A DNA stretch of 64,000 bases, from the NCBI GenBank assembly GCA_035496735.1, contig DATJEI010000135.1, positions 4,735-68,734 on the forward strand, written 5' to 3'. The notes beneath the pieces were generated by a model. It was not told the DNA's origin and did no database searches. It worked only from the letters and a program-made list of their open reading frames with translations. Both the position numbers and the translations under genes were made by a program. Origin of the DNA: Bryobacteraceae bacterium (GTDB lineage: Bacteria > Acidobacteriota > Terriglobia > Bryobacterales > Bryobacteraceae). Shown piece by piece: positions 1,775-51,787 of the stretch (position 1 is the first letter of the stretch; every line of letters begins with the position of its first letter).

Positions 1775-3805
1775 TCACCAAACTCTGCACGCCGGTCCCC
1801 GGACCATGGGCTGACCCGTCCGGCACGCAAATGCCTTTGCGAACTCCGGCATATTGGAGACCACTCCGTTCACGCGGAAGTTCCCCGGCGAGTGCGGATC
1901 CGTCTGCGCACGCAGACGAGCCGCCTCCGGCCGCACATTCTGGCACCACACTTGTCCCCAACCCAGAAAGAAGCGTTGCTCGGCGGTGAAGCCATCGCGG
2001 GGAGGTGGTTCCTTGCCTCCCAGCTTGCTCATCAGAGCCATGTAGGCGAGGCGCAGCCCGCCGTTATCCGCCGTGTTCTCGCCCAGCGTCAGCTTCCCAT
2101 TCAATTTCAGGTCATCCACCGGGCTATAGTTGCCATACTGCTGGACGATACAGTCGGCTCGCTGATTGAAAGCCTTGGCATCGGCCTCGGTCCACCAGTC
2201 GCGCAGGTTGCCCTTGGCGTCGAACTGGCGGCCTTCATCGTCAAAACCGTGGGTCAGTTCATGTCCGATCACCGAGCCGATGGCGCCATAATTCACGCCG
2301 TCGTCCATCTGGTTATCGTAGAATGGCGGCTGCAGGATGCCCGCCGGAAAATTGATGTTGTTCTGCTGGGGATCGTAATAGGCGTTGACGGTGGGCTGGC
2401 TCATTCCCCACTCTTTCTTATCCACCGGCTTGCCGATGCGGGATAGCTCGCGATCCACTTCATAGCGGCTGGCGCGCTCTGTGTTGCCAAAGAAGTCATC
2501 CCGTGAGATGCGCACCGTTGAATAAGTCCGCCATTTGTCGTTCGTGCCGATTTTATTGAGAACGCCGTGCAGCTTCTCCATTGCCAGTTGCTTGGTTTGG
2601 GGAGTCATCCAGTCCAGCGATTGCAGGTCCGCGGCCATGGCTTTCTCAATCTCCCCCACCATCTCGTGCGTGCGCCGCATGCCTTCGGCTCCCAAGGTGG
2701 TTTCGACAAATTTGCGGCCTAGTGCATCCGGCAACTGCTGATCGGTCAAATCCACGCAGCGCTTCCAGCGCGGGCGCATCTCCTTGGCTCCGCGCAACAC
2801 CTTGCCGTAAAAGTTGAAAGATTCCTCCTCGAAGGGGAGGGATAGCGCATTAGACGAATCCCGCACCAGGTTCCAGGTAAGATACGCCTTGAGATCGTCG
2901 AGCGATGCGGCAGCAATGGCCGCATTCATACCTTTAATAAAGTCCGGCACATCCACATTCAGCGCTTGAAAACCCGGTGCTCCGGCAGCCTTGAAATAGC
3001 GGTCCCACGCAAAGCCCGAGCCCAATGCATCCAGTTCCCGCAGCGTCATCTTGTGATACACCTTCTCCGGATCGCGGCGCGCCACGCGATCGAGGGATGC
3101 CTTGGCCAATTCGGTTTCCAGCGCCATCACCGCCTGCGCCTGTTTGGCCGCGGCCTCCGGGCTGGCGCCCGCGAGTTGCAGCATCTTTTGCACATGGGCC
3201 ACGTATAGCCTGCGGATCTCGGCGGACTTCTCATCGGTCTTCAAGTAATAATCGCGATCCGGCAACCCCAAACCTCCTTGATCCAGATCCGCAATCATCA
3301 TGGCCGAGTTCTTGGCATCCGGCCCCGAGCCAAAGCGGAAGAACGGAGATGTTCCGTTACGATACAGCGCCACCACGGTATCGGTGAGACTCGTTTTATC
3401 TTCCATTGCCTTGATGCGGTCGAGTTCCGGTTTCAGCGGCGTCCCGTCCTTGGCATCGATCTCTTTCTCGTTCATGCAGGCGGCGTAATAATCGCCAATC
3501 TTCTGTTCGATCGCCGCGCGGCCCGGCTTCACCACCGCCGCCTCTTCCAGAATCTTGTGCAGGACTTCACGATTCCGGTCCTGCAGCGCATCGAAGCGCC
3601 CCCAGCGCGACTGATCCGGCGGAACGGGGTTGGCCTTCATCCAGGCGCCGCAAGCGAACTGATAGAAATCCACGCACGGATCGGCGCCGCGGTCAATTGC
3701 AGCGGGATCGAATCCAGGGGCAGTCTGGCCCCACGCCGCCCCCGGTAAGAGGCACAACGTGAGGAGCCCGAGCGAAAGAAGGTGAAACGAGAGTAGTGTC
3801 CTCAT
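1775..3805 (-). CDS. M13 family zinc metallopeptidase (PepO/neprilysin-like), secreted
   Basis: Signal peptide present, HELTH (HExxH) within VIGHELTHGFDDEG, the ENTADNGG motif, and a length of 676 aa. Confidence 0.95.
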   Translation of the reverse strand: MRTLLSFHLLSLGLLTLCLLPGAAWGQTAPGFDPAAIDRGADPCVDFYQFACGAWMKANPVPPDQSRWGRFDALQDRNREVLHKILEEAAVVKPGRAAIEQKIGDYYAACMNEKEIDAKDGTPLKPELDRIKAMEDKTSLTDTVVALYRNGTSPFFRFGSGPDAKNSAMMIADLDQGGLGLPDRDYYLKTDEKSAEIRRLYVAHVQKMLQLAGASPEAAAKQAQAVMALETELAKASLDRVARRDPEKVYHKMTLRELDALGSGFAWDRYFKAAGAPGFQALNVDVPDFIKGMNAAIAAASLDDLKAYLTWNLVRDSSNALSLPFEEESFNFYGKVLRGAKEMRPRWKRCVDLTDQQLPDALGRKFVETTLGAEGMRRTHEMVGEIEKAMAADLQSLDWMTPQTKQLAMEKLHGVLNKIGTNDKWRTYSTVRISRDDFFGNTERASRYEVDRELSRIGKPVDKKEWGMSQPTVNAYYDPQQNNINFPAGILQPPFYDNQMDDGVNYGAIGSVIGHELTHGFDDEGRQFDAKGNLRDWWTEADAKAFNQRADCIVQQYGNYSPVDDLKLNGKLTLGENTADNGGLRLAYMALMSKLGGKEPPPRDGFTAEQRFFLGWGQVWCQNVRPEAARLRAQTDPHSPGNFRVNGVVSNMPEFAKAFACRTGQPMVRGPACRVW

Positions 3806-35281: not shown

Positions 35282-36472
35282 CTACCTCAAAAAGTAATCC
35301 GCCTTCCCCATCTCCGCCGGCACCGCCACATCGAAGAACCCGATCATCATCTCGTCCCAGCTCTGCTGCCCGTACCGCACCTCAGCCGAAGGGTCCGGAT
35401 TCCGTGGATTATTCGGCGAATTATCGAACCACGCCATCCACTCCAGCCGCGTCCCCTTCTTCAGCGCTAGCGGAGTCGCCAGCCGGTAAGTCATCTGCCA
35501 GTAAAAATCGTACTTGCTCACCTTCAGCAGCGTCTCCGGCAGCCCGTTGTCGCCGATGCGCGTATATTCGAACGCTTTCCCGCGCAAATGCATGTGCGGA
35601 AAAAATCCCAGCAGCAGCGCATCGTTCGGCAGCGTGCCTCCCACGCGCACGCGGTAATCCCGCTCGCCCGGCGGAATCGTGAACGTGTCGTTGCCCATCT
35701 GCAGCGTCAGCACCGCCTTTTCCGGAGGTGACTTAGCGAACACCAGCCCCACCCGCTCACGGTCCGTCGTGGGCCTGCCGTTCGGCGTGTAGTGAATCTC
35801 AAACACCAGATCGGACCCCGCCTTCACCCGCTTGGCCATCCCCTGCGGCCACACGTCGGGCGAGCTTCCCGGCGCGTACACCGTCAAAATATCGGCCTTG
35901 GTCGGACCTCCCGTCCACGTCGATCCCGGCTCGCGAATGTACACCACCACGTGATGCACCACCGCCCGATTCCCCGGTCGCACTTCCACGCCCTGCACCC
36001 AGCGGTCTTTGGTAAACCCCGTCGGAGCCGCGAAATACTGATACTCTACCGCGCCCTTCGCCGGCACATCGAACGCGCGCGGCATCTCCACCACCTGATC
36101 CGGCGTGCCCAAATTCCAACCCCGCGGCCACTCACGCGCCTGCGGAGCGTCTTTCGCATCGCCCTCCGCGGCGCCCGTCGACGCCCACGCGCCCAACGTA
36201 TCGATCTCCGCCGCCGTTAGCGACCGGTCATTGGCGAACTTCCCGCAGCAGGGATCGCCAAACCACGGCGGCATCTTGCGCGTTCGCGTCGCCTCGCGGA
36301 TCGCCTTCGCCCACGGCCGCGTCTCCCGATAAGTGACCAGCGGCATCGGAGCCATCTCCCCCGCCCGATGGCACTCCTGGCAGCGATTTTGCAGGATGGG
36401 AAGAACGTCGCGATAAAACGTAGGGGATGCGGCCAGCGCTGGCCAAGCGATCAAAACCCACGCCCACCGCAT
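35282..36472 (-). CDS. secreted CxxCH heme-motif + PHM/DBH-like copper monooxygenase-fold protein (paralog 1)
   Basis: Signal peptide MRWAWVLIAWPALAASP. Motifs present are CQECH, HHVVVY, PHMHLRGK (HxH) and SWDEMM. The tracked ORF extends to 36508. Confidence 0.8.
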   Translation of the reverse strand: MRWAWVLIAWPALAASPTFYRDVLPILQNRCQECHRAGEMAPMPLVTYRETRPWAKAIREATRTRKMPPWFGDPCCGKFANDRSLTAAEIDTLGAWASTGAAEGDAKDAPQAREWPRGWNLGTPDQVVEMPRAFDVPAKGAVEYQYFAAPTGFTKDRWVQGVEVRPGNRAVVHHVVVYIREPGSTWTGGPTKADILTVYAPGSSPDVWPQGMAKRVKAGSDLVFEIHYTPNGRPTTDRERVGLVFAKSPPEKAVLTLQMGNDTFTIPPGERDYRVRVGGTLPNDALLLGFFPHMHLRGKAFEYTRIGDNGLPETLLKVSKYDFYWQMTYRLATPLALKKGTRLEWMAWFDNSPNNPRNPDPSAEVRYGQQSWDEMMIGFFDVAVPAEMGKADYFLR

Positions 36473-38769: not shown

Positions 38770-40158
38770 CTAGCGAGCCGAGGCATCCGCGGTCTGCACC
38801 TTCGGTTTATGCTGCGCCGCCCACGCGTTGTATTCCTCATCGCTCAGGTAAGTGACGTTCATCCACGCGTGTCCCATTTCATCCACCGTGCGGTCGCCAA
38901 AGCCGACCCATTGATCCGGATCGGGATTATACGGATTCGCATGCGTGTTGTCGTACCACGCCGTGACGTGAATCATCGTGCCCTTCGGGAACACCGGCGC
39001 CGCGTCGTCCGCGTAAATATAGTTGGTCATCCAGTTGAAGTTGAAATTGCCGACATGGCTGACGATCTGCGCCGTTCCGTCCGGCAAAATGGCTTCCACC
39101 GTCATGGCCTTGCCGCGCAGATGCATATGCGGCTGGAAATTCTCCAGTTGCGCGGGGCGCGTCAGGACCGTGTAATTGTCCACTGCGGCAAGCGTATTCG
39201 GGGCGATATCGATATTGCGCCCCGCACGCGTTCGCGATCCGTCAGAAGATTTGAAGCCGCGCAACGCCTGGAATCCCGTCAGATATGTGCGGTGCGTAGG
39301 CTCCTGCCCCTTGGGATAAAGCCAGATTCCCAGCTCCACATTGTCACGAATCTCTTCGCCCACCGCGTGAATGTGCACGTCCCAGGAAATCTGCGAACCT
39401 GGCAACAGCAGTTTGCCGGTGTCCGGGCGATACAGATCGTAGCCCTTGCCGATGGCCCATTCCATCAGGAACGAACGCGCGCCCAAGTCGGCGTCGCCCG
39501 CGCCCGGAGCCAGGCTCGACGGATCGTCCTGCACCAGATACGCCACCGCGTGATGCGTGATCTTGCGACCCGCAGCGGTCCCCGGCCGGATCTCGACGGC
39601 CCGCACCCAGCGCGGCTCGGTCACCGGGATATTCGAACTCGGCCGCCACCACACGTCCTGATGATGCGCCGCCATCGTGTAGGGATCGGACTTGATCACC
39701 AGATCCGGCTGGCCCAGCTCTTTCGCCGCTTTCCATTCATTCGCAGCGGGCCATTCTTTGGGAGGCGGCATATCTTTGGGGTCCCCCATAGGCGCGCCGC
39801 TGTCCACCCACCGCACCACGGTTGCGATCTGTTCATCGGTGAGCGAGATGTCGTTCTTGAATTTCTGAATGCCGACGGTTTTGTCAATGTGCCACGGCGG
39901 CATCTGCCGCGTAATCACACGCTGGCGGATGGCCTTGGCCCACGGGCGGGTTTCTTCGTAGGTCACCAGCGACATGGGCGCGAGCGAGCCTTTGCGATGG
40001 CACTCCTGGCAGCGCTCCTGGAAAATCGGGGCAATGTCTTTGGCGAACGTAACCGCTTTCGCGGTCTCCGCCTGACCTGCGGCAGTGGCCGCATCCGCGC
40101 CCAACAGCGCAGCAGGCAGCACGAAAGCAGCAAACGCAAAAAACTTAGCAGGCGTCAT
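38770..40158 (-). CDS. secreted CxxCH heme-motif + PHM/DBH-like copper monooxygenase-fold protein (paralog 2)
   Basis: Start set at MTPAKFFAFAAFVLPAALLG (ATG 40158). Motifs present are CQECH, THHAVAY, PHMHLRGK and TVDEMG. It aligns along its length with 35282-36472. Confidence 0.8.
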   Translation of the reverse strand: MTPAKFFAFAAFVLPAALLGADAATAAGQAETAKAVTFAKDIAPIFQERCQECHRKGSLAPMSLVTYEETRPWAKAIRQRVITRQMPPWHIDKTVGIQKFKNDISLTDEQIATVVRWVDSGAPMGDPKDMPPPKEWPAANEWKAAKELGQPDLVIKSDPYTMAAHHQDVWWRPSSNIPVTEPRWVRAVEIRPGTAAGRKITHHAVAYLVQDDPSSLAPGAGDADLGARSFLMEWAIGKGYDLYRPDTGKLLLPGSQISWDVHIHAVGEEIRDNVELGIWLYPKGQEPTHRTYLTGFQALRGFKSSDGSRTRAGRNIDIAPNTLAAVDNYTVLTRPAQLENFQPHMHLRGKAMTVEAILPDGTAQIVSHVGNFNFNWMTNYIYADDAAPVFPKGTMIHVTAWYDNTHANPYNPDPDQWVGFGDRTVDEMGHAWMNVTYLSDEEYNAWAAQHKPKVQTADASAR

Positions 40159-40403
40159 AATACGCTCCTTCGACACACGTTTTACAAACCGCCAATCGTC
40201 GATAAGTCTAGCGATGCGAATGGATAATGTCAAAGGGGTAGGCGCCGCGAGCAAAGGACCCGTCCGAAAAACGCGCCACTGGCACGACCGGATAGCTCCC
40301 CGCATGGTCGGCAATCCAATTAACTAGCTACTGGATTGCGACGTGTACTTCCGGACGCTTTCTCATGGAAGGCGCTATCCGCTTTGCAATAGGCTAAACT
40401 TAA

Positions 40404-41702
40404 GTGCACAGTAATATGCTGCCGGCCCCACCTGAATCCCACGCGCAGAAGGGAGATGCGGAAGGGTTGGCCAAATTACGATCCCTGCCCCGAGATACGC
40501 TCTCTCTGTCGGACTGCGACAAAACATTGGTCAGGTCACACGGAGATTCCACTGTCCGTGCATTCGCCAGAGGTTTGTTCGAGTTGCAGACGGCTGGGTT
40601 CCGGCTCCTTCCCATGGAAGGAATGCGAGGAATCAGCGCGCTGCTGGTTTTCTTCGTGCATTTTTATTCTCTCTTCGGATCGCGCGCGCAGTCTCCGCGG
40701 TTGGCCAGTTCATTTTTGTTTCTTGGAACCATCGGCCATGTGGGCGTAGACGTCTTCTTCGCGCTCAGTGGCTTCATCGTGTATGGAATGCTGATCGAGA
40801 AACCGATAGGATACTTAACATTCATCTGGCGGCGCGTCGTCCGGCTGTATCCAGTGTTCACGACCATCTTCGTGGTGTACGTGATCCTGGAATTGACGAT
40901 CGCGCCGAATGACCGGCTATTGGGCTCTTTCGGGTCCAACGTGGTCTATCTAGCTGCGAATTATCTGATGCTGCCCGGGTTCTTCCCGATCGTTCCTTTG
41001 ATCACAGTTGCATGGTCGCTCAGCTACGAACTCTTCTTCTACCTGGTGCTGCCGCTGGTAATAAGCAGCCTGCGGCTGAGGGCATGGCCACACAATAAGC
41101 GGGTGGTCCTTGTGACCGCGATCTCAATAGTGCATCTCGCCCTGGCCGGGAGTGGACTGATCGGGCATCCCCGGATGGTCATGTTCACCTGCGGAATCCT
41201 GTTGCGAGAGACTATCTCGTTCCAAACCATCTGGAACCAGCCGGCATGGCGCCGGACAGGGAGCATCGCTTCTTTATTGGCCTTCGCCAGCGCATTGGCA
41301 GTGCAGGGGTTGAGTGCGGAGCCGACGTTTGGACAATACTCTGGATTGGTCTCCCACGTACAGGGCTGGCGATTGGACCTCCTGTTTGGCGCAACGTATG
41401 CCTTGGGTTATTTCGCACTGGGCGGCGATGGATTCTTAGCCAAATGGTTCAGCTGGGACTGGATTCGCTGGTTTGGCAACATCAGCTACTCGTACTATCT
41501 CGTGCACGGGCTCGTCTTGCATATATTATTGAAGGGTTTTGACTTGATCCGCCTGCCCCCATCGCTTTCCATCCCATGGTTCCTGCTGCTCGCCGTGTTC
41601 TCCTTCCTGGCCACGGCACTCGGCGGGGCTGCGCTCTTTCTGACTGTGGAGAAGCCTTTTTTGGCTCTCAGAAAGCGGAATTTAAAGTACGCTAAGGCGT
41701 GA
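40404..41702 (+). CDS. acyltransferase family 3 (OafA-like) integral membrane protein
   Basis: MEGMRGISALLVFFVH motif and multiple TM segments. The exact start is uncertain: the first 70 aa are hydrophilic. Confidence 0.85.
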   Translation: MHSNMLPAPPESHAQKGDAEGLAKLRSLPRDTLSLSDCDKTLVRSHGDSTVRAFARGLFELQTAGFRLLPMEGMRGISALLVFFVHFYSLFGSRAQSPRLASSFLFLGTIGHVGVDVFFALSGFIVYGMLIEKPIGYLTFIWRRVVRLYPVFTTIFVVYVILELTIAPNDRLLGSFGSNVVYLAANYLMLPGFFPIVPLITVAWSLSYELFFYLVLPLVISSLRLRAWPHNKRVVLVTAISIVHLALAGSGLIGHPRMVMFTCGILLRETISFQTIWNQPAWRRTGSIASLLAFASALAVQGLSAEPTFGQYSGLVSHVQGWRLDLLFGATYALGYFALGGDGFLAKWFSWDWIRWFGNISYSYYLVHGLVLHILLKGFDLIRLPPSLSIPWFLLLAVFSFLATALGGAALFLTVEKPFLALRKRNLKYAKA

Positions 41703-41747
41703 GGTCGACTCGACCGCACCAGCCGGAACTTCCCGGCGTCAAGACAA

Positions 41748-42134
41748 TTAATCTGCAGCCGTTTCCTTCATGATTTTGATCATGGCGGTTTCGACTTCCT
41801 GCGCTACGCCTTCCAGTTGCGGCGTGTGGAACAGCGCCAGAAGAAGGGTCGGCTTTAACGCTGCGAGCATGGTTTTACCGCCCTCCTGGTAAATCGAGAT
41901 CCGGCAGGGCAGCGCTGTGGAGACGCTCATGTTTTCCTCAAGCACCTTCTTCGCTTGCTGCGGCTGGCAGACTTCAAAGATCAGACATTCGCGGGCGAAC
42001 TCCACGCCTTTCTTCGCCATGGTTTCTTTGAGGTTGTGAACCTGCATCACGCCAAAGTGATTGGCTTGCACGGCAGCCTGTAAGGCAGCCGCGGTTTCAC
42101 TTACGGTTTTATCGGTGGAGTATTTGAGCAGCAT
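41748..42134 (-). CDS. DUF302 domain protein
   Basis: 128 aa with ...FGVMQVHNLKETMAKKGVEF...EVCQPQQAKKVL...LPCRISIY..., typical of DUF302. Confidence 0.85.
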   Translation of the reverse strand: MLLKYSTDKTVSETAAALQAAVQANHFGVMQVHNLKETMAKKGVEFARECLIFEVCQPQQAKKVLEENMSVSTALPCRISIYQEGGKTMLAALKPTLLLALFHTPQLEGVAQEVETAMIKIMKETAAD

Positions 42135-42262
42135 ATATTTTCGTTGAGCAGTCGCGCATGACCACCAGCACGGAGATCACGGTCCAAGCGACATCCCGCC
42201 GCCAATCCATCTGCTTCCGCCCGTCCATCGGCGCGAGCACGTGGCGCTCCCAATGATTGCGG

Positions 42263-43508: not shown

Positions 43509-46500
43509 TCAGGCCTCGAGCACCACTTCTTCAAGGGGCCGCGGCGAGTGTTTCTTGGCCGCTTTGCGGTCCTTGCGTCTCTTGCCGGAACCGGCGAAGC
43601 GTTCCATGTAGGTGTAAAACACCGGCGTGATAAACAGCGTCAGAAGCTGCGATACTACTAGGCCGCCGACTACCGCCAGACCCATAGGGCGACGCGCTTC
43701 GCCGCCGGCGCCCAAGCCCAGCGCGATGGGCAGCGTGCCCACCAGCGCCGACATGGTGGTCATCATAATGGGGCGGAAACGCACCAGGCAGGCTTCGACA
43801 ATCGCCTCGGCGGGCGCGATGCCATCGGTACGCTGGGTCTCCAGCGCGAAGTCGATCATCATGATGGCGTTTTTCTTGACGATGCCCACCAGCATGATAA
43901 TGCCGACGAACGAATAAATATTGAGCTCCTGATGGAACAGCACCAGCGTGGCCAAAGCGCCCAATCCGGCGGAAGGAAGTCCGGAAAGAATAGTGATGGG
44001 ATGGATGAAGCTCTCATAGAGAATTCCCAGCACCATGTAGATCACCAGCACGGCCAGCGCTAACAGCAGCCCCATGCCGCGCAGAGAATCCTGGAAAGCC
44101 GCGGCCGTGCCCTGGAACGTGGTGCTGATGGTATCCGGCAGAGTCTCGCGGGCCACCGCCTGCACGCGGTCGACGGCATCGCCCAGGGCCACGCCGGGCG
44201 CGGTATTAAAGGAAACGGTCACCGCCGGCAATTGACCAAAGTGCTGGATCGTGAGCGGACCCACTCCGGTCTTGAGCGAGGCCACGGCGCTCAGCGGAAC
44301 CAGATTTCCGTTGCTCGAACGCACGTATAAGAGTCCCAGGCTGTTCATGTCGCGCTGATACTGCGGCAAGACTTCGAGCATGACCCAGTAACTATCCACC
44401 TGCGTATAGATGGTGGAGATTTGCGGCTGCCCGTAGGCGCTGTTGAGCGCGCTCTCGATTTGTCCTTCGCTGACGCCCACGGCGGACGCCCGGTCGTGGT
44501 TGATATCCACGCTGAGAATGGGACTCGCTATCTGCAGATCGCTATTCACGTCGGTGAGACCCGGCACCGTATGCAGGCGTTTTTCAAAGGCGGCGGCGGC
44601 GGAGTAGAGCGTATTGAGATCGCCGGATTGCAGCGTGAACTGATACAGCGTGCGGATCTGGTTGCCGCCGATGCGCACCATGGGCGGGTTCGCCAGGAAA
44701 ACGCGGACACCCGGAACCGTAGCCAACTGCGGGCGGAGTTCCTCAATAATCTGCTCCGGAGTCAGCTTGCGTTGCTTGCGGGGTTTGAGGCGGATAAAGA
44801 AGCGGCCCTGGTTCATGGGCGAGCCCTGATCGCCGCCCACTCCCATGAAGGAGCCGAACAACTCGATGTTCGGATCCTTAGCCATAATGGCAGCCACCCG
44901 GCCCTGCAGATCTTTCATAGCCTCAAAGGAGATGTCCTGGCTGGCTTCCGTGCTCCCCTGCAGCATGCCGGTGTCCTGGCTGGGAATGAAACCCTTAGGC
45001 GTTACCACCAGCAGATATGCCGTGCCCGCCAAGGTTCCGGCAGCTACCAGCATGGTGAGGGGACGGTGCCGCATAACGCCGCGCAGCACCCAGCCGTAAG
45101 CGTCGCGCGCCCCATTGAGCACGCGTTCGGTCGCGCGGTAGAGCGCGTTGTGATGTTCGGTGGGCGGCTTCAGGAAGCGGCTGCACAACATGGGCGTGAG
45201 GCTGACGGAGACGAAGCCGGAAATCAGGATGGCCACGATAATGGTGACCGCGAATTCATGGAACAGGCGGCCCATGATGCCGCTCATGAACATTACCGGG
45301 ATGAAAACGGCGGCCAGCGACAGCGTCATCGACATCACGGTGAAGCCAATCTCCCGAGCGCCTTCGAGCGCGGCTTCCATGCGGGGCTTGCCCATTTCCA
45401 TGTGCCGGACGATATTCTCCAGCACCACAATGGCGTCGTCCACCACGAAACCAACCGATAGCGTGAGCGCCATCAGCGACAAGTTGTCGAGCGAATATCC
45501 CAGTGCCCACATGGCTGCAAAGGTGCCGATCACTGAGATCGGCAGCGCCAGGCTGGGAATCGCGGTGGCAGAGACGTTGCGCAGGAACAGGAAGATCACC
45601 AGGACCACCAGGATCACGGTGGCTAGCAACGTGAATTTAACGTCATTGACCGACTCCAGAATCGGCTGCGAGCGGTCGAGCTGGATGTCGACGTTAACCG
45701 TCGGCGGCATCACTTCCGCAAAGGCCGGCAACAGGGCTTTAATCCGGTTCACGACCTCTACTGTGTTGGCTCCGGGCTGACGCCGAATTGCCAGCATGAT
45801 GTAACGCTCGCTGCCCCGGTTGGTATAGAGCGTCATCGCGGCCTTATCCACCTGAACCCCGTCAATCACCCGCCCCAGATCCCGCAAGCGCACCGGGGAG
45901 CCGTTGCGGTAGGACACGATCATGTTGTTAAAAGCGTTCGCGTCCATGAGCTGGCCGTTGGCGCGCACCGTGAAAGCTTGATTCTTGCCCCACAGAGCGC
46001 CGGTGGGCTGGTTCACGTTATGGGCCTTGAGGGCATTGGAAACCTCATCGATTCCGATGTGGCGTGCAGCCAGCAGGCTGGGGTCGAGCTGCACATGGAC
46101 CGCCCACTTCTGGGCGCCGAACACATTCACCTGAGCCACGCCGTCCAGCGAGGAAATTCGCTGTGCCATCAGGTTTTCGGCGTACTCATCGAGTCTGGAA
46201 AGTTCCATGGTCGGCGCGGAGAGTGCCAGCAGGAGGACCGGCATGTCCCCGGGATTCACCTTGCGCAGGGTGGGTGGCGAAGGCATCCCCGGCGGGAGCA
46301 GCCGCAGGACCGCCGCAATGGCGCTCTCGACATCGGCTGCCGCGCCATCAATCGAGCGATCGAGAGTGAATTGGATGGTGATGCTGGTGCTGCCGACTCC
46401 GCTCGAGGAGGTCATGGTATCGATGCCGGCGACAGTCGCGAACTGGCGTTCGAGAGGCGTGGCGACCGCGGTAGCCATGGTTTCCGGGTTGGCGCCTGGC

Positions 46501-46652
46501 AGGCTGGCCTGGACCTGAATGGTGGGGAAATCTACGTTGGGGAGATCACTGACCGGCAGCGCGCGATAACCGGCAATTCCAAACAGAACGATACCGATCA
46601 TGACCAGCGCGGTCATTACAGGGCGCTTGATAAAGAGATCGGTAATGCTCAT
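43509..46652 (-). CDS. RND efflux transporter permease (AcrB/MdtBC-like, HAE1-type)
   Basis: 1047 aa with an N-terminus MSITDLFIKRPVMTALVMIGIVLFG...LPVSDLPNVDFPTIQV typical of multidrug RND pumps. Confidence 0.95.
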   Translation of the reverse strand: MSITDLFIKRPVMTALVMIGIVLFGIAGYRALPVSDLPNVDFPTIQVQASLPGANPETMATAVATPLERQFATVAGIDTMTSSSGVGSTSITIQFTLDRSIDGAAADVESAIAAVLRLLPPGMPSPPTLRKVNPGDMPVLLLALSAPTMELSRLDEYAENLMAQRISSLDGVAQVNVFGAQKWAVHVQLDPSLLAARHIGIDEVSNALKAHNVNQPTGALWGKNQAFTVRANGQLMDANAFNNMIVSYRNGSPVRLRDLGRVIDGVQVDKAAMTLYTNRGSERYIMLAIRRQPGANTVEVVNRIKALLPAFAEVMPPTVNVDIQLDRSQPILESVNDVKFTLLATVILVVLVIFLFLRNVSATAIPSLALPISVIGTFAAMWALGYSLDNLSLMALTLSVGFVVDDAIVVLENIVRHMEMGKPRMEAALEGAREIGFTVMSMTLSLAAVFIPVMFMSGIMGRLFHEFAVTIIVAILISGFVSVSLTPMLCSRFLKPPTEHHNALYRATERVLNGARDAYGWVLRGVMRHRPLTMLVAAGTLAGTAYLLVVTPKGFIPSQDTGMLQGSTEASQDISFEAMKDLQGRVAAIMAKDPNIELFGSFMGVGGDQGSPMNQGRFFIRLKPRKQRKLTPEQIIEELRPQLATVPGVRVFLANPPMVRIGGNQIRTLYQFTLQSGDLNTLYSAAAAFEKRLHTVPGLTDVNSDLQIASPILSVDINHDRASAVGVSEGQIESALNSAYGQPQISTIYTQVDSYWVMLEVLPQYQRDMNSLGLLYVRSSNGNLVPLSAVASLKTGVGPLTIQHFGQLPAVTVSFNTAPGVALGDAVDRVQAVARETLPDTISTTFQGTAAAFQDSLRGMGLLLALAVLVIYMVLGILYESFIHPITILSGLPSAGLGALATLVLFHQELNIYSFVGIIMLVGIVKKNAIMMIDFALETQRTDGIAPAEAIVEACLVRFRPIMMTTMSALVGTLPIALGLGAGGEARRPMGLAVVGGLVVSQLLTLFITPVFYTYMERFAGSGKRRKDRKAAKKHSPRPLEEVVLEA

Positions 46653-46780: not shown

Positions 46781-46898
46781 AGCAAGCGGAGGGGGCGGCC
46801 GACTTCCGCAGGCCCGTGAGCGCGCGATGATGCCCGACGACTTATTTTGCGCTGGCGGCGGTCCAGTAGGCGGGCAAGTTAGGCTTGGTCTCGCGGAC
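46781..46898. repeat. direct repeat, left copy, bounding the McrBC islet (contains a displaced copy of the last 18 codons + stop of gene 50468-51787)
   Basis: 46835-46898 is identical over 64 nt to 50461-50524. 46781-46834 is similar to 50412-50460, with substitutions and small indels. Confidence 0.9.
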
Positions 46899-46912
46899 CG
46901 CAGACCTCAATT

Positions 46913-47362
46913 TTGTTAGGCTTTAGGATCGACATGACCAAAGGACAACGGAATTTGTTGGGTCGCCGCCTTCGAGCCGCCATTAAATACCAGCCAGAGA
47001 TTAAGCTGCTTCGTGGGTTGCTGCTTGAGTTGGGCGGCGTGGAGTTAGTTGCCGCGAGTGGGTTTGATCCCGATGCGCCTCTCCTTATTCGCTTCGGCTT
47101 TGCCATGTCGGGGTCCGTGGAAAAGAAAGTCATGGAACGCAGCGCATGCCATAAAAATATAGCGGCGCTTTGGATAGCAAAACAAAGCAGACTATTGGCA
47201 ATAGGTACCGGGTATGCTCTCAGCGATGATGGCCTCTGGCGTCAGCATTCGTGGGGCATTCGGCGAAATGGTATTCTCGAAACCACTGAAAGTCGCGTTA
47301 AATACTTCGGGAGGGCTCTTAAAGGACGAGAGGCGGATTCTTTTGCCGCGTTCAACATTTAG
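46913..47362 (+). CDS. hypothetical protein inside the McrBC islet
   Basis: 149 aa (or 142 aa from ATG 46934). I recognise no motif. It is convergent with mcrC, with a 16-nt gap. Confidence 0.5.
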   Translation: MLGFRIDMTKGQRNLLGRRLRAAIKYQPEIKLLRGLLLELGGVELVAASGFDPDAPLLIRFGFAMSGSVEKKVMERSACHKNIAALWIAKQSRLLAIGTGYALSDDGLWRQHSWGIRRNGILETTESRVKYFGRALKGREADSFAAFNI

Positions 47363-47378
47363 GGTGGTTGGAATGGTA

Positions 47379-48851
47379 TCACCGGAGTTCCGCTCGCAGC
47401 TCATGAGACAAGGCTCCCACGATATGTTCCACCGCGGTCGCCATGGGTAGCGCAGTAAGCCATAAATGCAGCGACCGTGAGCCAACCACCAACTCCGCCC
47501 GGTGGATCAGTCGGCCACGCGCTCGCAATGAATCCCAGTTCTGCGGTGAACAGGGATAAACGAGGCACGCGATCACCTTTGACGTTCGCGCCAAATTCAC
47601 GTATGCCAGGACCTGCAGTAAGTCATTACGGTGCTGCTCGCGGAGTTCCTCTTCCGCGTTCGACCAAGAGCCCTGTAGTTCTTCCCAGTGGCGTTTGTAT
47701 TTCGCGTCCACAATAAGCGTTGTAGAGTCGAATTCCACCCAGACGTCTGGCACAAGGGATTTTTGCGAGCCCAGATAGGGTGGTTCCCAGCTTATGGGAT
47801 GGGTAGTCTCGCGCTTTCTGCCGACCTTCATTTGTCCGCCCGTTCGTTGCGCCACCACGCGAAATATAGTTTCGATCCACGCCTCGAAGAACTGATCCAT
47901 CGGCAGCTTCCACGGTATGCCTTCGCGATCACTCAACCCGGCCAAACCTCGCTCCTCGATTGTCCACTCGATGGCCTGCAGGCCGTTGACGAATCGTTCG
48001 GTCCGAAACGGCCGTTGCATCCAGTTTCCTAATGTTATTGATGATGGTACGTACACTGGAACCGACTGAACGCGATGCAATAATTGATCCCCGAACTCGA
48101 TTAGTCTGTGAACAAAGGCCCCGTGTTCCTTCTGCGTTTCCAACGCACGCAACTGACGCTCCACGGCATGCCGAACCGCGCCTTTGAGAAATCGATTGTC
48201 CAGGAGATCTGGAAATGTGCAGGGGATGGACAATAGACTGGCGGTGGGTATGCTTCCAGTCGCGTACTTGGCCCAATTTACGGTTCCGCGCGGCGCGCGG
48301 CGCGTTTCGGTGGTTAGTTCAAACCGCCGATCGAGAGTATCGAGCAGCGCTTTCAGTCTTGCCAGAATCATGAAAGACAGTACCCACGCGGGCACACGAC
48401 GTTCCGAGCGGAGCAGTAGAGGCAGCCGAAGCGGCGATGGGCTTACTCGCCAACCCATCTCTGCCAGCATCGGGCCAATGCCCGCCCAGGAAAAGCGAGG
48501 TTGCACGACGAGCCCGTAGTCTGGCCGAGCTGTAGTCGGAGAGATCAGCGGCATTGCACCGACCGCATTCCCGGACTGAATGACGAGCCGTACGTCTCGA
48601 CCGTCATAATCTCGCTCGACTCGAACGTCAAGTAAAGCCATCAGGGACCGGTTCTGAGTGATGAACTGCTCCGCCAACCTTGCTGCTCTAGCGGCCACCG
48701 TTTGCGGATCGCCAAGCTTACGCAGTTGAAAGAAATCGATTGCGGATGGACGGATAGTCGAGTGATCTTCCAGTTCAAGACAGACTTCATTTGAGTGGGC
48801 TGGCGCCAATAGCGGCGTGGTCCTACGGTGGCGCTGCAAGCGGGAGCGCAT
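47379..48851 (-). CDS. mcrC: McrC-like endonuclease subunit of a type IV restriction system
   Basis: C-terminal PD-(D/E)xK-like motif (LVPDVWVEF...LIVDAKYK). The start ATG shares one nt with the mcrB stop (TGATG). 490 aa. Confidence 0.8.
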   Translation of the reverse strand: MRSRLQRHRRTTPLLAPAHSNEVCLELEDHSTIRPSAIDFFQLRKLGDPQTVAARAARLAEQFITQNRSLMALLDVRVERDYDGRDVRLVIQSGNAVGAMPLISPTTARPDYGLVVQPRFSWAGIGPMLAEMGWRVSPSPLRLPLLLRSERRVPAWVLSFMILARLKALLDTLDRRFELTTETRRAPRGTVNWAKYATGSIPTASLLSIPCTFPDLLDNRFLKGAVRHAVERQLRALETQKEHGAFVHRLIEFGDQLLHRVQSVPVYVPSSITLGNWMQRPFRTERFVNGLQAIEWTIEERGLAGLSDREGIPWKLPMDQFFEAWIETIFRVVAQRTGGQMKVGRKRETTHPISWEPPYLGSQKSLVPDVWVEFDSTTLIVDAKYKRHWEELQGSWSNAEEELREQHRNDLLQVLAYVNLARTSKVIACLVYPCSPQNWDSLRARGRLIHRAELVVGSRSLHLWLTALPMATAVEHIVGALSHELRAELR

Positions 48852-50323
48852 CAGAGGCTTTTCAGTTTCTGCAAATAGGCTCGGATCGGTTCGGCGAACC
48901 CGCTAACGTAGCCTTGAGCTAGATATTCCTCAAGCAATGGAGCAAGATTTACCTGGAGGATCTGTTTCGCGCGAGATTCCTCAGGCTCGAGAAAATACGA
49001 GTGTCCCGGCACCAAAGGAAACGCGTCATCGGCCGCGTGCTCGATAAAGATGTTGACCAGGCCTTTAAAGGCGTCTTGCATAGTCGCACATCCGAACTGT
49101 TCGACCACGCTCATTCGGGGCCAAAGCGACACGAACGCGAAGCGTCGTCGAACCGCGACATCAACGATAGCGATGCTGCGGTCTGCGCTATTCATGGTGC
49201 CTAAAATATGCAGGTTCTTTGGCAAGAAAAATATCCGATGAAACGGTTCGCCGAAGTCATATGGGAGGTTGATTCTTCGATCCGAGCCGGATGTTGCTTC
49301 CAGCAAAAAAATTGCTTCGCCGAGAATCTTTCCCAGATCCGCGCGATTAATCTCATCGATGTGGAGGAGATAGTCATGTGACGGATCTTCGCATGCATCT
49401 ACGGCGACCTCCATTAGCGAACCGGGAGTTGGAGCAAAACTAAACCCCACGCCCCCCGTGGTACTCGCCGGGGCAAGACCGCCTATGAAGTTCTCGTAGG
49501 TAGTGTTCGGATGAAACTGGATCGTGCGCCCACGTCCTTGATATTTTTCTCGCAGGAGATCGGTGGCCATCATCGTCTTACCAGTTCCCGGCGGCCCTTG
49601 GATGATGACGTATCGTCTAGCGGCAAGAAGTTCGGCAACACGCGTCAGATCTACACCCGGCATCAGATGTTCGAACCAGCTATTTCGAATTGACTCAAAG
49701 TCATTCTGACTACTGGTCAATGGCTGATAGCCTCGCTCTTCGAAAAGAAGATCTAGGAAAGCGGTCACCGCCGCTTCCGTCGCTGCGCGATTGGCGGTTG
49801 GGCAGTAGAGCGCGTATATCTCACCGCCGTAGCGATCGAAAACGGTCTTGTAGGCAGGCCATTCCTGTCTTACTTCTTCCGGCACGGGGATGTCGTTCCG
49901 AGTTGGGTCCTGTTTTGCCCAAGCCACTCTTTTTCCGTTTCCATACGCTTGATTTAGCCATGAGCAGATCGCTTGAGCTTTACGAGAATGACCGGGTCTA
50001 CCAAGAATCGCTTCGTCGGGAGTTAATCCGGCTGTTCCAATCACCAAGCCAACGAGGCATTGCTGGTTCGCTATCGGGAAGATCACGAACGACAATCCGC
50101 TATAGGCTCCAGAAGAGGGATTCGACGGATGGATATAGGCTGCGAATGGAACGCCGGTGTCCGCATTCATTTCGGGCGCTCTGAGCGTTACTGCCTTTTC
50201 CGCTGCCTTCGGATAACGCCCGCCTGGGCTACCAAAGAGCGATTCGAAGGCGATTTTATTTGTGGCGGCCCAAGAATCGTGAGTCGTAGCATGGACGATA
50301 TCGAACAATGGCGAAATATTCAT
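48851..50323 (-). CDS. mcrB: McrB-like AAA+ GTPase subunit of a type IV restriction system
   Basis: Walker A GPPGTGKT, FHPNTTYENFIGG, HIDEINRA and GTMNSADRS signatures. The N-terminal roughly 230 aa form a separate, possibly DUF3578/MrcB_N-like domain. Confidence 0.9.
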   Translation of the reverse strand: MNISPLFDIVHATTHDSWAATNKIAFESLFGSPGGRYPKAAEKAVTLRAPEMNADTGVPFAAYIHPSNPSSGAYSGLSFVIFPIANQQCLVGLVIGTAGLTPDEAILGRPGHSRKAQAICSWLNQAYGNGKRVAWAKQDPTRNDIPVPEEVRQEWPAYKTVFDRYGGEIYALYCPTANRAATEAAVTAFLDLLFEERGYQPLTSSQNDFESIRNSWFEHLMPGVDLTRVAELLAARRYVIIQGPPGTGKTMMATDLLREKYQGRGRTIQFHPNTTYENFIGGLAPASTTGGVGFSFAPTPGSLMEVAVDACEDPSHDYLLHIDEINRADLGKILGEAIFLLEATSGSDRRINLPYDFGEPFHRIFFLPKNLHILGTMNSADRSIAIVDVAVRRRFAFVSLWPRMSVVEQFGCATMQDAFKGLVNIFIEHAADDAFPLVPGHSYFLEPEESRAKQILQVNLAPLLEEYLAQGYVSGFAEPIRAYLQKLKSL

Positions 50324-50411
50324 TCGGCTCCAGTCGAGTTAGTTTCAATCTCGGACTTCATTATTTCATTCCTCCCTATGGAGCGCGAGAGAGCTCGAAG
50401 AAATGCCGAAT

Positions 50412-50524
50412 AGCAAGCGGGGGCAGCCGACTTCCGCAGGCTCGTGGCGCGAGCGATGCTCGACGACTTATTTTGCGCTGGCGGCGGTCCAGTAGGCGGG
50501 CAAGTTAGGCTTGGTCTCGCGGAC
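50412..50524. repeat. direct repeat, right copy (the functional 3' end of gene 50468-51787 plus its downstream region)
   Basis: See the left copy. The 64-nt identical core is 50461-50524 and includes the TAA stop at 50468-50470. Confidence 0.9.
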
Positions 50525-51787
50525 GATTTCGAGAATCGCGCGCCGGTCCTCGGCGGACAGATTCTTCAGCGAGAGGCCGCCTACGGATGCGCTCGAGTCC
50601 TGGCCGGTGAGGATCTCATAAAGGCGCCGGTAGATGCGGTCGCGCACCAGGCCGGGCAGGCCGTCGAAGGCCGGGCTGTAGATCATGTAGGAAAGCGGAT
50701 AGCGGAACAGGCGCGTCTGCAGATCGAAATCGCGCAACGAGCGGCCTTGTTTATCGCGCGGACCGCGCTGCTGGAAGGTTTTGGAAAACCCGGAAACGCC
50801 GGCCACCGGCTGGCGCAACGGCGCTTCGTCGCCGAATAACATATTCGCCACCAATTCGTCGATTTCGGCGTTGAGCTGCGCACCTTGCGTAACGAGCGCG
50901 CCGTCGTGCTGCGCGATGCGTGCATCCCAGCCAATGCGGATCAGCAGATTGGTCATGCGGGTCTGATGCTCCAGCACCAGCAACGCGACCAGATCGCTGG
51001 TGGGAACCAGATAACGCGAGGTGTCGAACCAGGGGCTGAGATCGGTGACGTTCTGCGTGCCTTCGAGCGAAGCGGGGCCGGGATGGATGGGATCGGCCAG
51101 CGCGCGGTTGTTGCCTAAATGGGTTTGCGCACCGTGGGTGCCGGTGACGTACCAGCCGCCCCAACGTTGGTTGAAAGGAGTGCGATGATCCGTCATCATG
51201 GCATTGCCATGTTCCTGGCCGGGGCCAGCGGAGGGATGGACTGAACTGATCAGGAGTCCGGGGACGGCCAGGGTGACGGGACCCTGATGGCAGCGGAGGC
51301 AATCGTCGCGGCGGGCGATCACGGGTTGCGGAGAGCGGGCGGGGTCCAGGCTGTAGAGGATCACGCCTTGCCGCGGATCGAGCGAGGTCAGCTCCAGCAC
51401 TTCGCCATTTTGAACATAGCCGATGCTCGAATCGTCGTTGAAATAAATTGCGCGCGGCGTGCGCGGGGAGATGCGTTCCACCTGAATGCTGGTGCGGGAG
51501 AAAACCAATACCTGCGAGTCGGCGGGAATGCCAAGTTCTTTGAGCAGAGCGGGCAGATAACCCCAGCCGTTGGGCGCATAGTCGAGCTTAAGCTGTCCCG
51601 CGGCAACGCGCTTCGCGAGACGGCCCACAGGATCCGTGGTCGCACCGGCGTAGAGGATGGCGGGGTGATCCAGCGGGATGAAGATGGTGTCTTCGAGGCG
51701 CTCCGCCAGCAGCGCAGCCGCGACAAGAAGAACCGCGCCCGCGGCAAGAAGCGGAAGGCGCGCGCGCGGACCCATAACCAGCCCCAT
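50468..51787 (-). CDS. secreted/membrane-anchored hypothetical protein with a single CxxCH motif
   Basis: Start set at MGLVMGPRARLPLLAAGAVLLVAAALL (ATG 51787), which avoids overlap with the upstream gene. Contains CLRCH. I recognise no family. Confidence 0.7.
   Translation of the reverse strand: MGLVMGPRARLPLLAAGAVLLVAAALLAERLEDTIFIPLDHPAILYAGATTDPVGRLAKRVAAGQLKLDYAPNGWGYLPALLKELGIPADSQVLVFSRTSIQVERISPRTPRAIYFNDDSSIGYVQNGEVLELTSLDPRQGVILYSLDPARSPQPVIARRDDCLRCHQGPVTLAVPGLLISSVHPSAGPGQEHGNAMMTDHRTPFNQRWGGWYVTGTHGAQTHLGNNRALADPIHPGPASLEGTQNVTDLSPWFDTSRYLVPTSDLVALLVLEHQTRMTNLLIRIGWDARIAQHDGALVTQGAQLNAEIDELVANMLFGDEAPLRQPVAGVSGFSKTFQQRGPRDKQGRSLRDFDLQTRLFRYPLSYMIYSPAFDGLPGLVRDRIYRRLYEILTGQDSSASVGGLSLKNLSAEDRRAILEIVRETKPNLPAYWTAASAK

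What the first reader, a model, noticed from the sequence alone, without database searches (positions are those of the whole stretch)
46781..50524. Low-GC McrBC type IV restriction islet bracketed by 113-118 bp direct repeats that duplicate the 3' end of the adjacent gene; no recombinase
Seen: 46835-46898 and 50461-50524 are identical over 64 nt. A further roughly 50 nt to the left of each (46781-46834 and 50412-50460) are similar, with substitutions and small indels. The right copy is the genuine 3' end (last 18 codons plus TAA) and downstream region of gene 50468-51787. The left copy is a displaced duplicate lying next to the upstream region of the RND pump gene. Between them are only three genes: an unknown 149-aa ORF, mcrC and mcrB. 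Hand-counted G+C in two 60-nt lines there is 29/60 and 24/60, against 37/60 in a flanking line. Established knowledge: integrative elements often target gene 3' ends and regenerate them, leaving direct repeats. Unusually, no integrase, transposase or excisionase is present. Inference: this is a minimal defence cassette, mobilised in trans or acquired by homology-facilitated recombination through the conserved 3' end. The diverged outer part of the repeat may be donor-derived sequence.
Basis: partly seen in the sequence, partly recalled or inferred. Interest (0 to 1): 0.66.

Follow-up and report, generated by a model that had tools for sequence, protein, structure and literature searches.

The report
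Repeat-flanked McrBC defence islet, no integrase
A 3.6-kb, low-GC cassette encoding a McrBC-type restriction enzyme and one small unknown gene was inserted into the tail of a chromosomal gene of a soil acidobacterium; it is bracketed by a 113-118-base duplication of that tail and carries no recombinase, which makes it a clean but not unprecedented example of a defence gene set that moved without its own mobility genes.

Summary
Repeats 46781-46898 and 50412-50524 are real: the inner 64 nt are identical and the outer ~54 nt differ at 10 columns. They bracket orf142/149, mcrC and mcrB. The islet has the lowest GC (54.2% vs 60.0%) and the most deviant tetranucleotide usage in the window. Seven related Bryobacterales species have the empty site, with gene X followed directly by the RND pump gene. 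At least 15 soil-metagenome contigs of the same species (98.5-100% identical) carry the islet at the same place. No integrase or transposase family was found in the islet or in any ORF tested across the 64-kb window.

The left copy runs straight into ancestral spacer DNA; the right copy's outer half is linked to the islet. This fits one reciprocal (Campbell-type) crossover between the chromosome and a circular cassette that carried a close relative's copy of the gene end. The enzyme is unresolved: host recombination, or an integrase acting in trans or since lost.

One contig (L084) is circularly permuted across a single hybrid repeat, which suggests a circle or tandem copy. A sister species has only the small orf at this same site. 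A related mcrBC pair sits beside a tyrosine integrase and tRNA-Pro.

The closest known kinds are cis-mobilizable elements (CIMEs) and the recombinase-less H47 island.

The parts
46781..46898 (-). Left repeat copy (118 nt). It is the displaced, non-functional copy of the last 57 nt of gene X plus about 61 nt of the native downstream spacer. It continues leftwards into the ancestral RND upstream region.
   Evidence: repeat; beyond 46781 the sequence is colinear with the empty-site spacers of L003 and L097, including the CCCATATGGCACAT box.
50412..50524 (-). Right repeat copy (113 nt). It is the functional 3' end of gene X (18 codons plus TAA, 50468-50524) plus 56 nt of islet-linked spacer. The outer part is polymorphic between strains.
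   Evidence: Strain variants in L083, L085 and L084.
46835..46898 (.). Identical 64-nt core of the repeat (partner at 50461-50524); the probable zone of strand exchange or gene conversion.
   Evidence: 0 mismatches, 0 expected by chance. (0 of 64 columns differ, against 10 of 54).
46887..46906 (.). Novel joint J1 (46898/46899), where islet DNA meets codon -19 of the gene X copy. Read on the minus strand, GGTCTGCG|GTCCGCGAGACC is an imperfect palindrome (noticed after the fact).
   Evidence: read directly from the sequence.
46934..47362 (+). orf142 (alternative TTG start at 46913 gives 149 aa). A conserved small protein of unknown function, part of the inserted DNA.
   Evidence: 244 homologues. 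(conserved motifs). (AF2 pLDDT 93.6). (no PDB match; uncharacterised viral proteins only). (2571 representative clusters). (fusions with Acb1-like/2'-5' RNA ligase, GIY-YIG, NTase and DUF4265 domains).
47379..48851 (-). mcrC-like nuclease subunit (490 aa) with a C-terminal PD...DAK motif.
   Evidence: PF10117, 40.2 bits, cutoff 23.9. (translation shows ...LVPDVWVEFDSTTLIVDAKYK...).
48851..50323 (-). mcrB-like AAA+ GTPase subunit (490 aa). Its stop overlaps the mcrC start by 1 nt. The N-terminal ~210 aa match no family.
   Evidence: Walker A GPPGTGKT, Walker B IDEINRA and MNSADRS aligned to E. coli McrB MNTADRS.
50324..50411 (.). Islet-specific 88 nt between mcrB and the right repeat. The second novel joint, J2, is at 50411/50412. 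There is no room here for a recombinase gene.
   Evidence: Homology to the L100 module starts only at 50335.
50468..51787 (-). Gene X, the target gene. It is a conserved acidobacterial protein of unknown function with a CxxCH motif and matches no Pfam or NCBIfam family.
   Evidence: (558 confirmed relatives).
43509..46652 (-). RND (AcrB-type) transporter gene. In relatives that lack the islet it lies directly downstream of gene X.
   Evidence: PF00873, 5.9e-304..

Best explanation
A roughly 3.6-kb foreign module (mcrB, mcrC, orf142) entered the chromosome by a single reciprocal, Campbell-type crossover. The incoming DNA was circular. Besides the three genes it carried a close relative's copy of the last 57 nt of gene X plus about 55 nt of its downstream spacer. 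Pairing of this ~113-nt stretch with the resident gene end, and one exchange within or just past the identical 64 nt, placed the module behind an intact gene X. It pushed the native gene end and spacer to the far side, next to the RND gene. This is shown: the insertion, its boundaries, its foreign composition and the hybrid nature of the two repeat copies. The enzyme is inferred: because no recombinase is on board or nearby, I favour host recombination (RecA-dependent or RecA-independent exchange between extensive imperfect repeats). The same repeats can reverse the event, releasing a 3.6-kb circle, or amplify the module in tandem. Functionally the module is a type IV, modification-dependent McrBC restriction system plus an accessory protein of unknown role from a family linked to phage-host conflict.
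For: Empty site in seven related species, with gene X and RND 140-220 nt apart. Islet composition is the most deviant in the window. The left copy is colinear with ancestral spacer, whereas the right copy's outer half ends abruptly at islet DNA. Differences are confined to the outer half (10/54 vs 0/64, p=2.5e-4), as expected for hybrid att-like products and not for a duplication that then drifted. Both outer halves resemble each other more than any other species' spacer (by eye on the alignment; identities not computed), so the donor was a close relative. No recombinase family in the islet or the 64-kb window. The length of identity between the copies varies among strains (64 nt in the window, 77 nt in L083). 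Contig L084 joins the orf142 side to the mcrB side across one repeat that is left-type and then right-type, with the switch in the diverged part. That pattern resembles the multi-point exchanges of the recombinase-less H47 island (PMC5426353). A sister species carries an orf142 homologue alone in the same intergenic spacer (L106/L107), which shows that this locus repeatedly hosts this gene family among relatives, as flank-homology-driven exchange predicts. The same three-gene module sits elsewhere without repeats (L100), so the repeats are a property of this event and not of the module.
Against: Insertion into a gene's 3' end with a regenerating copy, and a sharp inner boundary (J1) with an imperfect palindrome, are hallmarks of integrase-made junctions. 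A related mcrBC pair does sit next to a tyrosine integrase and tRNA-Pro (L101-L103). No donor with gene X' directly followed by mcrB was found among 79 species-level loci. How the circle closed at J1 is unexplained. No same-species empty site was found, so current mobility rests on one contig that could be an assembly loop. Only 64 kb of the genome is visible, so an integrase elsewhere cannot be excluded.
Confidence: 0.45

Rival explanations
1. This is a decayed or trans-mobilised integrative element, like a cis-mobilizable element (CIME). A tyrosine integrase recognising a site at the start of the repeat (J1) integrated an element whose attP carried the gene X 3' end. The integrase gene was later deleted, or the element always relied on an integrase encoded elsewhere.
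For: The target is the 3' end of a gene and is regenerated. The att-like direct repeats have a sharp inner edge and an imperfect palindrome at J1. A 78%-identical McrB with its McrC lies next to a PF00589 integrase and tRNA-Pro in L101-L103. CIMEs are an established category: attL and attR retained, integration genes lost (PMC5704250).
Against: There is no integrase, nor any remnant: only 88 nt lie between the right repeat and mcrB and 14-35 nt between orf142 and the left repeat. The ORFs tested across the 64-kb window contain none. tblastn with the L102 integrase found nothing in the window or in any gene X locus. The repeat homology runs ~55 nt past the stop codon into ordinary spacer that is 80-85% like the native one, which looks like captured flank and not a dedicated attP. 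The L084 junction switches type about 20 nt beyond the core, not at J1. No integrase-bearing element was found at this site in any of the gene X loci fetched here.
Confidence: 0.3
2. The insertion event itself duplicated the target. A double-strand break with long staggered ends, or a replication-template switch, captured the module and copied ~115 nt of target on both sides. The copies then diverged, and the coding core was kept identical by gene conversion.
For: Both copies are closer to each other than to any other species' spacer (by eye on the alignment). Strain variants of the right copy look like conversion tracts of different lengths.
Against: Zero differences in 64 nt next to 10 in 54 nt requires an extra conversion step. 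The left core is non-coding, so selection cannot hold it. No known insertion mechanism gives target duplications of this length.
Confidence: 0.1
3. The islet is ancestral at this locus, and the seven 'empty' relatives each lost it by recombination between the flanking repeats.
For: Direct repeats would delete the islet cleanly. L106/L107 retain an orf142 homologue at the same locus.
Against: Islet GC, GC3 and tetranucleotide usage are foreign to the genome. Seven independent clean losses would be needed. The closest McrB relatives (83%, 78%, 76%) sit at unrelated loci. L106 has no repeat and a different insertion point, right after the stop codon.
Confidence: 0.05

Closest known systems
McrBC type IV (modification-dependent) restriction system, E. 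coli McrB/McrC
   Same: Two co-oriented genes with overlapping stop and start. McrB has the AAA+ GTPase core with Walker A, Walker B and an NTAD-like MNSADRS motif aligned to E. coli McrB. McrC matches PF10117 and has a PD...DxK motif.
   Different: The N-terminal ~210 residues of McrB (the DNA-reading part) match no known family. McrC is 490 aa and scores far below the E. coli equivalog model. PADLOC has no specific hit for it. The pair is accompanied here, and in L100, by a third conserved gene.
Cis-mobilizable elements (CIMEs) of Streptococcus: integrated elements that keep attL/attR but have lost integration and transfer genes (PMC5704250)
   Same: Flanked by direct repeats, inserted at the 3' end of a protein gene, and carrying no recombinase or transfer genes.
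   Different: No related integrase-bearing element using the same site was found. The repeats are much longer and imperfect, and include ordinary spacer DNA. The host is an acidobacterium.
Microcin H47 genomic island of E. coli (PMC5426353)
   Same: A small island with extensive, imperfect direct repeats and no recombinase of its own. Excision to a circle uses several homology blocks within the repeats. This parallels the hybrid L084 junction and the variable identity lengths seen here.
   Different: For H47, circle formation and independence from RecA and 16 site-specific recombinases were shown experimentally. Here the circle is inferred from one metagenome contig. The cargo here is a restriction system, not a microcin.
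tRNA-targeting integrase islets carrying McrBC
   Same: McrB and McrC are 78% identical to the window's. The element is minimal in size.
   Different: It has a PF00589 integrase next to tRNA-Pro, no orf142 and no long flanking repeats.
Integration hotspots without recognisable mobile elements (PMC5635113)
   Same: An intergenic spot between conserved genes that holds different accessory content in related species: empty, orf142 only, or orf142 plus mcrBC.
   Different: Here the junctions preserve the physical trace of the event (a hybrid gene-end duplication). Hotspot surveys usually lack this.

Membership tests
McrBC type IV restriction system | McrB subunit: AAA+ GTPase with Walker A, Walker B and the NTAD-type motif | tested here: met
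   PF07728 8.3e-13. NCBIfam McrB 5.2e-34, though below the equivalog cutoff. PDB 6hz4 3.6e-34, with GPPGTGKT, IDEINRA and MNSADRS aligned.
McrBC type IV restriction system | McrC subunit with a PD-(D/E)xK nuclease fold | tested here: met
   PF10117 2.6e-10, 40.2 bits against a cutoff of 23.9. VPD...VDAKYK seen in the translation. No solved-structure match by sequence.
McrBC type IV restriction system | mcrB immediately followed by mcrC on the same strand | tested here: met
   48851-50323(-) and 47379-48851(-) overlap by 1 nt.
McrBC type IV restriction system | N-terminal McrB domain that reads modified DNA; modification-dependent cleavage | not testable with these tools
   Residues 1-210 match no Pfam, NCBIfam or PDB sequence. 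Activity needs experiments.
Integrase-type genomic island / integrative element | Direct repeats (attL/attR) at both ends, one within the target gene's 3' end, which is regenerated | tested here: met
Integrase-type genomic island / integrative element | Self-encoded site-specific recombinase | tested here: not met
   No such family in the three islet genes. The orf142 model matches no recombinase fold.
Integrase-type genomic island / integrative element | Empty site in relatives | tested here: met
   L001-L003 and L096-L099.
Integrase-type genomic island / integrative element | Excised circular form with a single recombined att site | tested here: inconclusive
   L084 (3609 nt) is circularly permuted over one hybrid repeat and spans the whole unit minus 10 nt. 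It could be a circle, a tandem copy or an assembly loop. No reads are available.
CIME (cis-mobilizable element) | attL and attR retained while recombination and transfer genes are absent | tested here: met
CIME (cis-mobilizable element) | Descent from, or shared att with, an integrase-bearing ICE or IME | tested here: inconclusive
   No integrase-bearing element at gene X in the loci fetched here. An integrase-McrBC islet exists, but at tRNA-Pro.
Transposon / insertion sequence | Terminal inverted repeats, short target duplication, transposase | tested here: not met
   No terminal inverted repeats at the islet ends. The duplication is 113-118 nt. No transposase family.

The most novel reading that the evidence does not exclude
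The islet is a currently active, recombinase-free 'pop-out/pop-in' cassette. Host recombination between the 113-118-nt gene-end repeats releases a 3.6-kb circle, seen as contig L084. That circle can re-enter any relative that shares the gene X tail. This would be a general route by which defence genes move between the same hotspot in related soil bacteria without any mobile-element machinery. The orf142 family might contribute to targeting or maintenance, because it recurs at this very site (L106) and next to another gene-end duplication (L108).
Probability: 0.15. Interest if true: 0.7.

Novelty: new member of a known kind. Interest (0 to 1): 0.42.

Why it matters
How defence systems reach chromosomal hotspots that contain no mobile-element genes is still an open practical question (PMC5635113). 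This locus keeps the physical scar of the event: a hybrid duplication of the target gene's tail. Empty, partly filled and filled versions of the same site exist in related species, and one contig is consistent with a circular or tandem intermediate. That makes a concrete model, circle plus single crossover through captured flank homology, directly testable with reads or PCR in a widespread soil acidobacterium. It also flags a large, uncharacterised small-protein family (orf142) that travels with conflict-related genes.

Tried and rejected
1. A same-species empty site was sought in two ways. An exact-pattern scan of metagenome contigs gave only other species. Exact look-ups of gene X with two possible starts were not on record.

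2. A donor with gene X' directly followed by mcrBC: none among 79 species-level gene X loci.

3. McrB in viral contigs: no relative.

4. An integrase near the islet or near gene X. Pfam on about 50 window ORFs and tblastn with the L102 integrase were negative. The window has no tRNA genes.

5. orf142 as a hidden recombinase. It has no Pfam, NCBIfam, PADLOC or PHROG family. A confident AF2 model has no PDB match. Its fusions point to phage-host conflict functions instead. Rejected as unsupported.

6. Flanking repeats as a general property of this McrBC module: absent in L100-L103 and L111-L117. Rejected.

7. A survey of about 1.6 Mb of fetched loci for similar gene-end duplications found a few candidates (L108, L071, L066, L047). 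Their cargo annotation was too thin to generalise.

8. A terminator or promoter role for the repeat: the simple scans found nothing in it.

9. Assembly artefact for the repeat structure itself: rejected, because it is reproduced in independent contigs from many samples.
Full report
**Observation.** A gapless search gives 46829-46898 against 50455-50524 at 69/70, and a second block 46791-46818 against 50419-50446. The 63-nt core pattern occurs exactly twice in the window and never in 100 shuffles. A gapped alignment gives 118 nt (46781-46898) against 113 nt (50412-50524). All 10 differing columns fall in the outer 54 nt and none in the inner 64 (Fisher p=2.5e-4). The right copy contains the last 18 codons and the TAA of the minus-strand gene 50468-51787.

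**Gene content.** Three genes lie between the copies.
- 48851-50323(-) is an McrB-type AAA+ GTPase. It matches PF07728, the NCBIfam McrB model at 5e-34 and E. coli McrB structures at 3.6e-34. The motifs GPPGTGKT, IDEINRA and MNSADRS align.
- 47379-48851(-) overlaps mcrB by one base. It passes Pfam's McrBC model (40.2 bits, cutoff 23.9) and shows a PD...DAK motif.
- The third gene is best read as 142 aa from the ATG at 46934, which is how gene callers read it on other contigs.

The left flank is an AcrB-type RND gene. Gene X matches no family; it has a CxxCH motif and hundreds of acidobacterial relatives.

**Composition.** The islet interior is 54.2% GC against 60.0% for the window. It is the lowest of all same-size windows (sd 1.7%) and has the largest tetranucleotide distance from the rest (0.271 against 0.177+-0.023). 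GC3 is 0.53, 0.61 and 0.55 for the three islet genes against 0.71-0.78 for the neighbours.

**Empty sites.** Gene X relatives place the window in Bryobacterales (Acidobacteriota). In L001, L002 and L003 (gene X 75-87%, RND 88-90% amino-acid identity), gene X is followed directly by the RND gene with a 140-220-nt spacer and no McrBC. A pattern built to match only an empty junction found four more such contigs in metagenomes (L096-L099, 80-89% nucleotide identity).

The multiple alignment shows that the window's left copy continues into DNA homologous to those spacers, including the conserved CCCATATGGCACAT box. The right copy stops abruptly at islet-specific sequence (…GCTTGCTA|TTCGGCATTTC…). 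So the left copy is the displaced native gene end, and the outer half of the right copy came in with the islet.

**Population data.** The exact McrB and orf142 proteins are encoded on at least 15 short soil-metagenome contigs from different projects. These contigs are 98.5-100% identical to the window, colinear with it, and carry the islet at the same site. No same-species empty site was found.

The left copy is invariant in these contigs. The outer half of the right copy varies: L083 has a left-type base at the first diagnostic position and a replaced 15-nt segment, and L085 has another change. The length of perfect identity between the copies therefore differs among strains (64 or 77 nt).

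**A circular or tandem junction.** Contig L084 (JGI 3300086437, 3609 nt) is circularly permuted relative to the window.
- Positions 1-1941 match 48755 down to 46806 (mcrC, orf142, repeat).
- Positions 1852-3609 match 50524 down to 48766 (repeat, mcrB).
- It therefore covers the whole 3.6-kb unit except 10 nt.
- Its single repeat is left-type at the first two diagnostic positions and then right-type of the L083 kind. Its haplotype is closest to L083 (99.83%).

A k-mer chimera would have to switch inside a 6-nt match, so either that strain's right copy already has this sequence or the junction is a real recombinant. I read this as suggestive evidence for a circle or a tandem duplication. Without reads it is not proof.

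**No recombinase.** No integrase, transposase or resolvase family appears in the islet. None appears in about 50 ORFs spanning the whole window, which otherwise encode housekeeping, signalling and polysaccharide genes. There are no tRNA genes and no terminal inverted repeats.

**The module elsewhere.** McrB has thousands of relatives, many 70-83% identical and full length, mostly in Bryobacteraceae.
- The closest with a long context (L100, 83%) has mcrB, mcrC and an orf142 homologue at an unrelated locus. Nucleotide homology spans only window 50335-46914, and there are no flanking repeats.
- L101-L103 (78%) have mcrBC next to a PF00589 tyrosine integrase that abuts tRNA-Pro, which is a classical minimal integrative islet.
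- Other relatives (L104/105, L111-L117) sit at further loci with neither integrase, nor orf142, nor repeats.

The gene-end repeats are therefore a feature of this particular insertion, not of the module.

**orf142.** It belongs to a large family: 244 close homologues and 2571 representative clusters. It has strongly conserved motifs and a confident predicted fold (pLDDT 93.6). That fold matches nothing in the PDB and only uncharacterised giant-virus and phage proteins. Fusion partners include a 2'-5' RNA ligase/Acb1-like domain, GIY-YIG, a nucleotidyltransferase and DUF4265. This points to phage-host conflict and not to recombination.

The family is not bound to McrBC.
- In L106/L107, a sister species (RND 90%, gene X 76%), a 69%-identical copy sits alone in the same intergenic spacer, convergent with gene X and without any repeat.
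- In L108/L109 a 68% homologue lies beside a different insertion: an HNH endonuclease plus an HTH gene, bracketed by a 72-nt duplication of the 3' end of a methyltransferase gene.

**Mechanism.** The structure gene body | R(native core + foreign tail) | cargo | R(core + native tail) | native downstream is what one reciprocal crossover between a chromosome and a circular molecule produces.

The foreign tail is 80-85% like the native spacer. Judged by eye on the alignment (identities not computed), it is more like the native spacer than like any other species' spacer. So the circle carried flank DNA captured from a close relative in which the module already lay behind gene X. The presence of orf142 at this locus in L106 fits that picture.

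I favour host recombination through this captured homology (confidence 0.45) for four reasons. No recombinase is present. The homology is ordinary flank. The identity boundary varies between strains. The L084 switch lies in the diverged part, as in the recombinase-less H47 island, which excises at several homology blocks independently of RecA (PMC5426353).

The main rival (0.30) is an integrase acting in trans or since lost, that is, a CIME-like element (PMC5704250). It is supported by three things: the 3'-end target with regeneration, the sharp J1 boundary with an imperfect palindrome, and the integrase-linked relative at tRNA-Pro. A duplication made at insertion and later partly homogenised (0.10), and ancestral presence with seven losses (0.05), fit the data poorly.

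**Verdict.** It is a clean new example of a known kind: a repeat-flanked, recombinase-less genomic islet carrying a type IV restriction system. Two added points of interest are a possible circular or tandem form and a three-state occupancy of one hotspot among related species.

Noticed in passing
L084 (JGI 3300086437, Ga0683329_0085655), whole contig: A 3609-nt contig that is a circular permutation of the islet (orf142 side | one hybrid repeat | mcrB side), missing only 10 nt (window 48756-48765). It could be a circle, a tandem copy or an assembly loop.
   Followed up: partly
L106:7825-9781 and L107:4646-6602: In a sister species an orf142 homologue (153 aa, 69% identical) sits alone between the RND gene and gene X, 8 nt from the gene X stop. 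There is no mcrBC and no repeat, so the same hotspot holds different content.
   Followed up: partly
L108:6754-8003 (same in L109): A 72-nt direct repeat (85% identical) duplicates the 3' end of an O-methyltransferase gene and brackets an HNH-endonuclease-like gene plus a small HTH gene. The second copy ends at the ATG of an orf142 homologue. This is the same 'gene-end duplication, no recombinase' layout with different cargo.
   Followed up: partly
L102:5930-10350 (also L101, L103): A McrB/McrC pair 78% identical to the window's lies next to a PF00589 tyrosine integrase that abuts tRNA-Pro, with a cluster of six tRNA genes on the far side. No attR repeat could be found.
   Followed up: partly
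window 50412-50460 versus L083, L085 and L084: The outer half of the right repeat copy is polymorphic between strains: a base change, a GTCG-to-GAAG change, and replacement of AAGTCGGCTGCCCCC by TGTGAGGAGGCAGCC. The left copy is identical in every contig that holds it.
   Followed up: partly
window 40248-42261: About 2 kb present in the window but absent from the otherwise colinear contig L099. It holds an Acyl_transf_3 gene (40404-41702) and a 128-aa ORF. The 37-43 kb region has low GC (0.54-0.57) and the second most deviant tetranucleotide usage, so it may be another insertion.
   Followed up: no
L071:15517-19298: 131-nt direct repeats (90% identical) bracket a 1126-aa AAA_16 + TPR (STAND-like) gene next to an S4-domain gene. 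This may be another repeat-bracketed defence-type insertion.
   Followed up: no
proteins P0337, P0270, P0341, P0243 and P0379 (orf142 family): The orf142 domain is fused in other proteins to a 2'-5' RNA ligase/Acb1-like domain, GIY-YIG, a nucleotidyltransferase and DUF4265. It also has uncharacterised giant-virus and phage structural matches. It is a large unannotated family.
   Followed up: partly
window 50468-51787; L019, L023-L026: Gene X belongs to a large acidobacterial family with no database annotation. It has a CxxCH motif and is often present as tandem paralogues.
   Followed up: no
window 48851-50323, residues 1-210 of McrB: The N-terminal half of McrB, presumably the DNA-reading domain, matches no Pfam, NCBIfam or PDB sequence, yet it is conserved at 70-83% in many Bryobacteraceae homologues.
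   Followed up: no
window 36263-36385 and 39892-40014: A 125-nt direct similarity (74%) with 3629-nt spacing, also present in L001 and L003. Probably paralogous gene segments and unrelated to the islet.
   Followed up: no
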